Positions 44,266-44,652 of a stretch of 64,000 nt of DNA are shown here, in pieces. The DNA is taken from assembly GCF_003334355.1 (NCBI RefSeq), contig NZ_QOWP01000002.1; one strand, written 5' to 3'. Within the stretch, counting starts at the first letter, position 1; each line of letters begins with the position of its first letter. The notes under the pieces were generated by a model. That model was not told where the DNA came from. It saw only the letters and a program-made list of their open reading frames with translations, and did not search any database. This DNA comes from Escherichia coli (lineage in GTDB: Bacteria; Pseudomonadota; Gammaproteobacteria; Enterobacterales; Enterobacteriaceae). The position numbers and the translations under genes were made by a program.

Positions 44266-44312
44266 TTAATTTGCTCCAGATACAAGGAATCGCCGCAGCA
44301 TGGCTACGGCAA

Positions 44313-44327
44313 TGCGTCATTGAGACC
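44313..44327. promoter_or_regulatory. Putative Mnt operator (perfect palindrome AGACCAC-A-GTGGTCT)
   Basis: 15-bp perfect inverted repeat in the 135-bp gap between divergent tailspike and mnt genes; resembles the P22 Mnt operator half-sites (recall). Confidence 0.4.
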
Positions 44328-44400
44328 ACAGTGGTCTTATTGTGGATATAACCAGTAGATCATATGATGCCGATCCACTTACAAAAGTGAGGCATCAAGA

Positions 44401-44652
44401 ATGGGAAGAGATGACCCGCAATTTAATCTGCGGCTACCTTACGAATTAAAGGAAAAACTAAAACAGCGAGCCAAATCCAATGGCCGCTCTCTTAATTCAG
44501 AATTAGTTCATATAGTGACTGATGCTGTATCAAAGCCATCCAAAATTTCAGGCTATCGAGACGATGCGGAACGCATCGCTGATGAGCAGTCCGACCTTGT
44601 TAAGAAGATGGTGTTTGATACGCTGAAGGATTTGTACAAAAAAACCACCTGA
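44401..44652 (+). CDS. mnt: Mnt repressor (ribbon-helix-helix, Arc/MetJ family)
   Basis: 83-aa ORF (MGRDDPQFNLRLPYELKEKLKQRAKSNGRSLNSEL...SDLVKKMVFDTLKDLYKKTT) highly similar to P22 Mnt over its full length from recall. Confidence 0.85.
   Translation: MGRDDPQFNLRLPYELKEKLKQRAKSNGRSLNSELVHIVTDAVSKPSKISGYRDDAERIADEQSDLVKKMVFDTLKDLYKKTT

What the first reader, a model, noticed from the sequence alone, without database searches (positions are those of the whole stretch)
44266..44652. Orphan Mnt repressor without arc/ant, with a perfect palindrome in the mnt-tailspike intergenic region
The immI region of P22 is mnt, arc, ant, then the tailspike gene. Here mnt is retained and near-identical, but arc and ant are absent: mnt diverges directly from the tailspike gene across a 135-bp gap. 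That gap contains a perfect 15-bp palindrome AGACCAC-A-GTGGTCT (44313-44327), resembling Mnt operator half-sites. Mnt may therefore control a promoter reading directly into the tailspike gene, or an antirepressor encoded elsewhere; either would be a rewired immunity circuit.
Basis: partly seen in the sequence, partly recalled or inferred. Interest (0 to 1): 0.55.

Follow-up and report, generated by a model that had tools for sequence, protein, structure and literature searches.

The report
Orphan Mnt repressor with cognate operator
A P22-like prophage in E. coli keeps the small Mnt repressor gene and its DNA binding site right next to the tailspike gene but lacks the antirepressor genes that Mnt controls in phage P22; the layout is real and evolutionarily maintained, but it is already known from phages ST64T, ST104, L and SE1, so it is a modest finding.

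Summary
The palindrome AGACCAC-A-GTGGTCT lies at 44323-44337, not 44313-44327. Mnt is 75% identical to P22 Mnt, not near-identical: its N-terminal DNA-binding half is ST64T/L-type (Gln6 instead of His6) and its C-terminal half is P22-type.

No arc or ant exists in the window. The palindrome is very probably the cognate operator of this Mnt class:
- It sits where P22 Omnt sits, about -45 from a conserved mnt promoter.
- Its half-sites are nearly invariant in 36 distinct relatives while the centre base varies freely.
- The DDPQFNLR / AAGACCAC-N-GTGGTCT pairing recurs in other contexts, including one with arc-ant.

Orphan mnt is under purifying selection (dN/dS about 0.1; 61 of 63 copies intact).

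The Pant counterpart that would read into the tailspike gene is degenerate here (TCGGCA-17-TATATC) and destroyed in most relatives. Three complete orphan-type phage genomes hold one operator each and no Ant homologue.

Best reading: a self-contained Pmnt-operator-mnt module of a distinct specificity class, beside a fossil Pant, and not a rewired tailspike switch. The mnt-only "ant moron" is published (Villafane 2008; Zaworski 2020). Why Mnt is retained remains open.

The parts
42328..44265 (-). Tailspike gene (P22 gp9-type head-binding N-terminus with a different receptor-binding body)
   Evidence: ORF list. The N-terminal 110 aa are 76% identical to P22 gp9. The gene is annotated as phage tailspike protein in the 96.8%-identical O111 prophage.
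44274..44313 (-). Tailspike leader: an 11-bp hairpin (44289-44313) followed by RBS GGAG (44274-44277). This block is shared with the region upstream of P22 gene 9.
   Evidence: Sequence comparison. RNA fold of the late-sense strand (whole gap z = -4.4).
44323..44337 (.). Putative Mnt operator of the Gln6 class: AGACCAC-A-GTGGTCT. The conserved core is GACCAC-N-GTGGTC at 44324-44336.
   Evidence: Position and sequence. It is homologous in position to the annotated P22 Omnt. Half-sites are 94-100% conserved and the centre base is C12/A11/T8/G5 in 36 distinct relatives. The same protein-operator pairing appears in L175/L205/L206.
44340..44368 (+). Candidate Pmnt: -35 TTGTGG (44340-44345), 17-nt spacer, -10 TATGAT (44363-44368). 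The predicted start is near 44375, so the operator centre lies at about -45.
   Evidence: This is the best and only conserved promoter candidate in all orphan classes, TTG(T/A)GG-17-TA(T/A)GAT. Its geometry matches the annotated P22 Pmnt, TTGAGA-17-TATCAT. It scores 8 of 12 and is below the threshold of the consensus scanner.
44345..44373 (-). Fossil Pant: -35 TCGGCA (44373-44368), 17-nt spacer, -10 TATATC (44350-44345), at the position homologous to P22 Pant (TTGACA-17-TATATT). The operator would cover about +2 to +16.
   Evidence: Alignment by eye. PWM score is 6.6 against 16.1 for P22 Pant. The -10 is TGCATC, TGTATC, TACATC or TTCATC in relatives.
44401..44652 (+). mnt: an 83-aa ribbon-helix-helix repressor with an ST64T/L-type N-terminal half (RDDPQFNLRLP) and a P22-type C-terminal tetramerisation helix. 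SD GAGG lies at 44389-44392.
   Evidence: dN/dS is about 0.1 among orphan copies.
44752..44931 (+). orf59a homologue downstream of mnt (98% identical to P22 orf59a), followed by a bidirectional terminator-like hairpin at 44937-44956
44945..45835 (.). Rest of the 'ant moron': hkcC-like ORF (44945-45310, -) and sieA (45341-45835, +), lying between gene 16 and mnt
   Evidence: The same genes are annotated in SE1 and listed for the P22-like phage UAB_Phi20 (PMC4837284).

Best explanation
The locus is an mnt-only 'ant moron' of a P22-like prophage integrated at argW.

It keeps a self-contained module: operator, Pmnt, mnt, and downstream orf59a. The Mnt belongs to a distinct specificity class with Gln6 in the DNA-reading beta-strand. 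A Mnt tetramer would bind the dyad GACCAC-N-GTGGTC at 44324-44336. That site lies two bases upstream of the -35 hexamer of the mnt promoter, centred at about -45. This is the same geometry as Omnt and Pmnt in P22.

The partner promoter that Mnt shuts off in P22 (Pant) survives only as a degenerate fossil. In cis, Mnt can therefore only modulate its own transcript. The tailspike gene is served by late-operon read-through, as in P22, and not by a Mnt-controlled promoter.

What is shown: gene content, operator homology and conservation, promoter geometry, and purifying selection on mnt.

What is inferred: actual binding, the sign of autoregulation, and the reason Mnt is kept. The most plausible reason is action in trans on Pant-type promoters of incoming or co-resident phages with the same operator class.
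For: 1. Mnt identity: Arc plus Repressor_Mnt domains and a match to 1MNT/1QEY.

2. Operator homology with P22:
- P22 has AGGTCCAC-G-GTGGACCT, one base from the -35 of Pmnt (TTGAGA-17-TATCAT).
- The window has AGACCAC-A-GTGGTCT, two bases from TTGTGG-17-TATGAT.
- The operator centre is about -45 in both.

3. Conservation across 36 distinct upstream sequences of orphan loci:
- Positions -6 to -1 and +1 to +8 are 94-100% conserved.
- The centre base is C12/A11/T8/G5.
- The sequence beyond the distal edge of the operator falls into at least three unrelated versions.

4. Protein-operator co-variation:
- DDPHFNFR pairs with AGGTCCAC.GTGGACCT.
- DDPQFNLR pairs with AAGACCAC.GTGGTCT, both in orphans and in L175/L205/L206, which carry arc-ant and a strong Pant.
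- EDPQFKLR pairs with GGACCAC.GTGGTCC, present three times.
- EDPQFRIR pairs with CCCCAC.GTGGGG.

5. Clean dichotomy: all 61 Gln6-type IMG/VR loci lack arc and ant. All 19 His6-type loci have an Ant homologue; 17 of them also have a P22-type arc, and the other two (L082, L083) have only a distant Arc-like ORF (38% identity).

6. Purifying selection: median dN/dS is 0.095 for pairs with dS > 0.1, and 61 of 63 ORFs are intact.

7. Fossil Pant: TCGGCA-17-TATATC scores 6.6 against 16.1 for P22 Pant, and the -10 is destroyed in most classes. The consensus scanner finds no promoter in the gap but recovers P22 Pant and Pmnt and the L175 Pant.

8. Single operator and no Ant or Arc elsewhere in the window, SE1, Gally and L.
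Against: - No binding or transcription data exist for this Mnt class. The promoter calls are consensus matches, and the Pmnt candidate is only 8 of 12.
- Everything from the operator to mnt is highly conserved. Part of the operator's conservation could therefore reflect linkage within one recombining module. The freely varying centre base argues against that being all of it.
- The window-class fossil Pant (TATATC) could retain residual activity.
- A purely autoregulatory gene gives no obvious benefit, so the explanation is incomplete as to function.
- The early half of this prophage is outside the window.
- The Mnt beta-strand PQFNLR is identical to that of Arc. An Arc-like target cannot be formally excluded.
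Confidence: 0.6

Rival explanations
1. One reading: Mnt represses a promoter in the gap that reads directly into the tailspike gene, so tailspike synthesis is under Mnt control in the lysogen.
For: The operator lies 65 bp upstream of the tailspike start codon. It covers about +2 to +16 of the site homologous to P22 Pant. From my own knowledge (Berget, Poteete and Sauer 1983), P22 Pant transcripts can read through into gene 9. PMC2629481 notes that the ant moron may influence tailspike levels.
Against: The homologous promoter is TCGGCA-17-TATATC, which lacks the critical final T of the -10. Most orphan relatives have TGCATC instead. No conserved tailspike-directed promoter appears in any of the four flank classes. 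The consensus scanner finds none.
Confidence: 0.12
2. Orphan Mnt is kept for action in trans. It silences Pant-type promoters of superinfecting or co-resident phages that use the same operator class. This protects the prophage from induction by a foreign antirepressor.
For: mnt is under purifying selection although it has no cis target besides itself. Complete arc-ant cassettes with the same AAGACCAC-G-GTGGTCT operator and a strong Pant exist in ES18/SPN3UB-like enterobacterial siphovirus contigs, L175/L205/L206. From my own knowledge, a resident P22 Mnt represses ant of incoming P22. Trans-acting antirepressor crosstalk between prophages is described in the Salmonella prophage review PMC7380047.
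Against: Only 2-3 contigs among about 80 ant loci carry this operator class. No experiment exists. The benefit is hypothetical.
Confidence: 0.2
3. The mnt gene and the palindrome are a decaying, functionless remnant of a deleted immI region.
For: Zaworski et al. raise this possibility for phage L (PMC8022706). Pant is degenerate. Two of 63 copies carry a premature stop, and a few operators carry single mismatches.
Against: dN/dS is about 0.1 with synonymous divergence up to saturation. 61 of 63 copies are intact. The operator and the Pmnt hexamers are conserved across Salmonella and E. coli phages with different flanks.
Confidence: 0.06
4. Mnt controls an antirepressor, of the P22 type or another type, encoded elsewhere in the prophage.
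For: The early half of the prophage is outside the window. Relatives carry Rha or KilA-N type proteins: window 60426-60956, SE1 gp47, and the Gally nin-region 'antirepressor'.
Against: There is one operator within 3 mismatches in the 64-kb window and in each of the complete SE1, Gally and L genomes. There is no Ant or Arc homologue elsewhere in those three genomes.
Confidence: 0.05
5. The palindrome acts as an RNA hairpin or terminator on late transcripts, not as a protein-binding site.
For: In some relatives the palindrome is followed by a T-run, GTGGTCGTATTTTTT. The whole gap folds well as late-sense RNA, z = -4.4.
Against: In the window there is no T-run. The local hairpin is weak: -7.3 kcal/mol, z = -1.3, six pairs. 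A freely varying centre base with conserved arms fits either model. The co-variation with the protein's beta-strand fits only the operator model.
Confidence: 0.03

Closest known systems
P22 immI region (mnt - Omnt/Pmnt/Pant/Oarc - arc - sar - ant - gene 9)
   Same: - Same chromosomal slot, between gene 16/sieA and the tailspike gene.
- Homologous Mnt with Arc and Repressor_Mnt domains.
- Dyad operator with a CCAC-N-GTGG core at the same distance from a homologous mnt promoter.
- orf59a, hkcC and sieA are also shared.
   Different: - No arc or ant, and no sar target.
- Pant is degenerate.
- Mnt has Gln6 instead of His6, and 15 of its first 45 residues differ.
- The operator differs at positions +/-5 (T to A) and +/-7 (G to A).
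mnt-only 'ant moron' of ST64T, ST104, Para1, phage L, SE1 and ST160 (Villafane et al. 2008, PMC2629481; Zaworski et al. 2020, PMC8022706)
   Same: - mnt lies directly beside the tailspike gene across a 135-bp gap.
- Same N-terminal Mnt type.
- Same operator: AAGACCAC-C-GTGGTCTT in L, AGACCACCGTGGTCT in SE1.
- Same Pmnt candidate and same fossil Pant.
   Different: - The window's Mnt has a P22-type C-terminal half, as in SE1, rather than the L-type.
- The moron also carries orf59a, hkcC and sieA, which L lacks.
- The host is E. coli and the integration site is argW, with a different tailspike body.
Gln6-class immI cassette of ES18/SPN3UB-like siphovirus contigs (L175, L205, L206)
   Same: - Same beta-strand, RDDPQFNLR.
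- Same operator, AAGACCAC-G-GTGGTCT.
- Same two-base spacing between the operator and the -35 of the repressor gene's promoter.
   Different: - Its repressor is 137 aa with an unrelated C-terminal part.
- It retains a strong Pant (TTGACA-17-CATCAT) driving arc and ant.
- It lies among siphovirus tail genes, not next to a tailspike gene.
P22 Arc repressor
   Same: Ribbon-helix-helix fold family. The beta-strand PQFNLR of the window's Mnt is identical to that of Arc.
   Different: Arc is 53 aa and has no C-terminal tetramerisation helix. It binds the TAGA-box Oarc. No intact Oarc is present in the gap.

Membership tests
Mnt repressor family (P22 Mnt type) | N-terminal ribbon-helix-helix (Arc-like) DNA-binding domain | tested here: met
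   Pfam Arc PF03869, E=5.5e-21, residues 3-50. 1MNT match at E=3.6e-33.
Mnt repressor family (P22 Mnt type) | C-terminal Mnt tetramerisation helix | tested here: met
   Pfam Repressor_Mnt PF11423, E=4.4e-17, residues 53-80. 1QEY match at E=1.5e-12.
Mnt repressor family (P22 Mnt type) | P22-type DNA-reading residues (Arg2, His6, Asn8, Arg10 of the mature protein; list recalled from the Knight and Sauer literature, not read here) | tested here: not met
   Arg, Asn and Arg are kept, but His6 is Gln. This defines a separate specificity class, not P22 specificity.
Mnt repressor family (P22 Mnt type) | Binds a dyad operator between divergent promoters upstream of its own gene | tested here: inconclusive
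   A conserved dyad sits at the homologous position and co-varies with the beta-strand. Binding itself is not testable with these tools.
P22 immI immunity region (mnt-arc-ant) | arc gene divergent from mnt | tested here: not met
   tblastn with P22 Arc hits only mnt itself in the window.
P22 immI immunity region (mnt-arc-ant) | ant antirepressor gene downstream of arc | tested here: not met
   There is no Ant hit better than E=0.38 in the 64-kb window. The early region of the prophage was not available.
P22 immI immunity region (mnt-arc-ant) | Strong Pant promoter overlapped by Omnt | tested here: not met
   The homologous site is TCGGCA-17-TATATC, PWM 6.6 against 16.1. The scanner does not detect it in the gap but finds Pant in P22.
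mnt-only ant moron (ST64T/ST104/L type) | Lies between the last injection gene (16) and the tailspike gene, with mnt divergent from the tailspike gene and no arc or ant | tested here: met
   Gene order. The same 135-bp junction is present in L, SE1 and ST160. Described in PMC2629481 and PMC8022706.
mnt-only ant moron (ST64T/ST104/L type) | ST64T/L-type Mnt N-terminus with the AAGACCAC-N-GTGGTCT dyad | tested here: met

The most novel reading that the evidence does not exclude
Orphan Mnt is a stand-alone 'anti-antirepressor' immunity gene. Prophages that have lost, or never had, arc-ant keep a specificity-variant Mnt so that they can silence the ant promoters of invading phages with the same operator class. 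This would prevent their own induction by foreign antirepressor. The many Mnt beta-strand/operator pairs would then be specificity classes of a second, trans-acting immunity layer.
Probability: 0.2. Interest if true: 0.55.

Novelty: new member of a known kind. Interest (0 to 1): 0.27.

Why it matters
The arrangement itself is not new. [quoted passage not shown]

- The orphan mnt is not decaying. It is under purifying selection.
- It belongs to a separate DNA-specificity class (Gln6).
- It travels with a conserved cognate operator and promoter, while the promoter it used to repress has rotted.

This makes the question of what a repressor without a target is for directly testable. It also supplies natural beta-strand/operator pairs for the ribbon-helix-helix recognition code. 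For genome annotation, an 'Arc family DNA-binding protein' next to a tailspike gene in about 2% of complete E. coli genomes is an orphan Mnt of this class.

Tried and rejected
- Rfam scan of 43800-45900 at E <= 1 gave no hits, so no known RNA family was detected.
- I looked for a second operator in the window, SE1, Gally and L. None was found within 3 mismatches.
- I looked for Ant and Arc homologues elsewhere in those genomes. None was found.
- I tried to find the same prophage complete in RefSeq E. coli to inspect its early region. The best match, EC931 at 97.5%, is a deleted remnant at another attachment site and was uninformative.
- I checked ES18 and SPN3UB for a Gln6-class immI. ES18 has none at that position, and SPN3UB has an arc-ant cassette of a different operator type.
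- The exact-pattern scan of viral contigs for the operator returned 84 of 120 hits in unrelated contexts. These are chance matches of a 14-base pattern.
- The terminator reading of the palindrome was rejected for this window because the hairpin is weak and there is no T-run.
- Knight and Sauer 1989 could not be read because it is not held. Statements about Mnt contact residues therefore rest on my own knowledge and on the reference list seen.

Full report
**What is in the window.**

The window is E. coli chromosome up to tRNA-Arg(CCT) at 39776-39850. A P22-like prophage follows and runs off the right end. Its gene order is:
- intS-type integrase, 39976-41169 (+)
- an acyltransferase, 41217-42287 (+, apparently disrupted)
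- tailspike, 42328-44265 (-)
- mnt, 44401-44652 (+)
- orf59a, 44752-44931 (+)
- hkcC-like ORF, 44945-45310 (-)
- sieA, 45341-45835 (+)

The same argW-int-acyltransferase-tailspike order is annotated in an O111:H8 genome.

**Checking the observation.**

The tailspike gene and mnt are divergent across exactly 135 bp, 44266-44400. The ORF is a genuine Mnt. It carries Pfam Arc plus Repressor_Mnt domains and matches PDB 1MNT (E=3.6e-33) and 1QEY.

It is not near-identical to P22 Mnt. Identity is 74.7%, and the protein is a mosaic. The N-terminal DNA-binding half is of the ST64T/L type (GRDDPQFNLRLPYELKEK). The C-terminal helix is of the P22 type.

tblastn with P22 Arc and Ant finds nothing in the 64 kb except mnt itself.

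The palindrome AGACCAC-A-GTGGTCT is real, but it lies at 44323-44337, ten bases to the right of the stated position. A perfect 7-N-7 palindrome is not rare window-wide: 5 were found against about 3.9 expected. One falling inside this gap has an expectation of 0.007.

**Comparison with P22.**

The curated P22 record places Omnt (AGGTCCAC-G-GTGGACCT) between Pmnt (TTGAGA-17-TATCAT) and Pant (TTGACA-17-TATATT). Read in the same orientation, the window's gap is a diverged homologue of that region.
- The dyad shares the CCAC-N-GTGG core. It differs at positions +/-5 and +/-7.
- It lies two bases from TTGTGG-17-TATGAT pointing at mnt. P22 has one base, and the operator centre is about -45 in both.
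- At the place of Pant there is TCGGCA-17-TATATC.
- About 14 bp beyond the dyad the sequence joins the block found immediately upstream of P22 gene 9, which holds a hairpin and then the GGAG RBS.

**Relatives.**

The same junction occurs in Salmonella phages SE1, ST160, ST64T and L, in E. coli phages Gally and vB_EcoP-720R6, and in 105 of 5,426 complete E. coli genomes.

Among the 80 IMG/VR loci closest to this Mnt the split is clean.
- All 61 with the Gln6-type N-terminus lack arc and ant. They sit next to a tailspike gene, or next to a truncated tailspike 5' end followed by a second tailspike.
- All 19 with the His6 (P22) type have an Ant homologue. Seventeen of them also carry a P22-type arc and the P22 Omnt. 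The other two (L082, L083) have only a distant Arc-like ORF (38% identity) and no Omnt next to mnt.

In 36 distinct upstream sequences of the orphan class:
- the half-sites GACCAC / GTGGTCTT are 94-100% conserved;
- the centre base is C12/A11/T8/G5, the most variable column between the operator and mnt;
- the sequence past the distal edge of the dyad falls into at least three unrelated versions.

Orphan mnt genes are intact in 61 of 63 cases. Median dN/dS is 0.095 for pairs with dS > 0.1. This is not a decaying remnant.

**Is the dyad the cognate operator?**

Scanning viral contigs for the dyad, and separately for Ant relatives, gave independent protein-operator pairings.

| Beta-strand | Dyad | Context |
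|---|---|---|
| DDPHFNFR | AGGTCCAC.GTGGACCT | many loci |
| DDPQFNLR | AAGACCAC.GTGGTCT | orphans, and L175/L205/L206 |
| EDPQFKLR | GGACCAC.GTGGTCC | three tandem copies in front of the gene |
| EDPQFRIR | CCCCAC.GTGGGG | L209, L216, L217 |

In L175/L205/L206 a 137-aa repressor with an unrelated C-terminus faces a strong Pant (TTGACA-17-CATCAT) that drives arc and ant.

Outer half-site bases therefore track the beta-strand. This is what an operator does, and what an RNA hairpin would not do. From my own knowledge of the Knight/Raumann/Sauer work (titles seen; papers not held), N-terminal residues set Arc/Mnt specificity and single substitutions can switch it. His6 to Gln is the only change among the four DNA-facing residues. 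The resulting strand, PQFNLR, is identical to that of Arc.

**What Mnt can control here.**

A simple sigma-70 weight matrix recovers P22 Pant (16.1) and Pmnt (12.8). In all four orphan flank classes the only recurrent candidate is the mnt-directed TTG(T/A)GG-17-TA(T/A)GAT (8.2-8.8), at the position homologous to P22 Pmnt.

The Pant homologue scores 6.6 in the window class. It is TGCATC, TGTATC, TACATC or TTCATC in the others. No other tailspike-directed site is shared.

The tool's consensus scanner finds no promoter in the gap, yet it finds Pant and Pmnt in P22 and Pant in L175.

The window and the complete SE1, Gally and L genomes each have exactly one operator within three mismatches. The three complete genomes also have no Ant or Arc homologue elsewhere.

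In cis, the operator can therefore act only on Pmnt. The tailspike gene is presumably expressed by late-operon read-through, as in P22 (established knowledge; discussed in PMC2629481).

**What is known.**

Villafane et al. 2008 named this variable slot the 'ant moron'. They recorded that ST64T, ST104 and Para1 contain only mnt plus a gene of unknown function. Zaworski et al. 2020 report the same for phage L and leave open whether the mnt-like gene has another function or is a remnant. I found no paper in the held library that describes the operator, promoter or selection status of orphan Mnt.

**Verdict.**

The operator reading is well supported. The 'Mnt drives the tailspike' and 'antirepressor elsewhere' readings are not supported.

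The locus is a further member of a published architecture. It belongs to a distinct and selectively maintained Mnt specificity class whose purpose is unsettled. The most interesting reading still open is trans-acting protection against foreign antirepressor cassettes of the same operator class. Such cassettes exist (L175 type, in ES18/SPN3UB-like siphovirus contigs), but they are rare in the sample.

Noticed in passing
window 41217-42287: The O-antigen acyltransferase next to the integrase looks disrupted. A 57-aa N-terminal ORF (41217-41390) and a 260-aa ORF (41505-42287) are in the same frame. The longer ORF matches only positions 111-366 of the 372-position PHROG profile. An in-frame TGA lies at 41388-41390, and homopolymer runs A8 (41320-41327) and T7 (41372-41378) lie nearby. 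It may be a pseudogene or a phase-variable gene.
   Followed up: partly
window 44945-45310 (-): The hkcC-like 121-aa ORF in the ant moron contains an HExxH-like motif (HECAH). Its function is unknown (phrog_1365; no NCBIfam hit).
   Followed up: no
window 44289-44313 (late-sense RNA), with RBS at 44274-44277: A strong 11-bp hairpin sits immediately upstream of the tailspike ribosome-binding site. The same sequence block precedes gene 9 in P22 and in the O111 prophage. It may be an mRNA processing or stabilising element.
   Followed up: partly
window 44366-44396 (+ strand RNA): The predicted mnt leader folds into a hairpin that includes the Shine-Dalgarno GAGG (44389-44392). It could limit Mnt translation.
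   Followed up: no
window 44645-44658 (-) and 44687-44715 (+): A late-sense terminator-like hairpin plus T7 run lies inside the 3' end of mnt. A promoter-like TTGACT-17-AATATT lies upstream of orf59a. Both are conserved at the homologous positions in P22 (L001 2514-2527 and 2485-2457).
   Followed up: partly
L004, L047, L050 (about 420-430 bp gaps) and L025 (922-931 bp gap): In some relatives the operator and RBS are followed by a truncated tailspike 5' end of 16-28 codons (MTDII... or [11 protein letters not shown]...). Unrelated DNA and a second, complete tailspike gene come next. These look like scars of tailspike replacement by recombination.
   Followed up: partly
L132 8160-10283 (also L181-L185): A 147-aa ribbon-helix-helix protein (EDPQFKLR strand) is preceded by three tandem GGACCAC-N-GTGGTCC palindromes. 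A 523-aa P-loop ATPase follows it. This may be an autoregulated defence-like module.
   Followed up: no
L003 (E. coli O111:H8 strain 8E) versus window 39700-44660: O111 prophages at argW share the integrase, acyltransferase and tailspike (96.8% identity) with the window. They carry a complete P22-type mnt-arc-ant cassette with the P22 Omnt. The two ant-moron types are therefore exchanged between otherwise near-identical prophages.
   Followed up: yes
window 44416-44436 (Mnt residues 6-12): The DNA-reading beta-strand of this Mnt (PQFNLR) is identical to that of P22 Arc, although the operator is Mnt-like and not Arc-like.
   Followed up: partly
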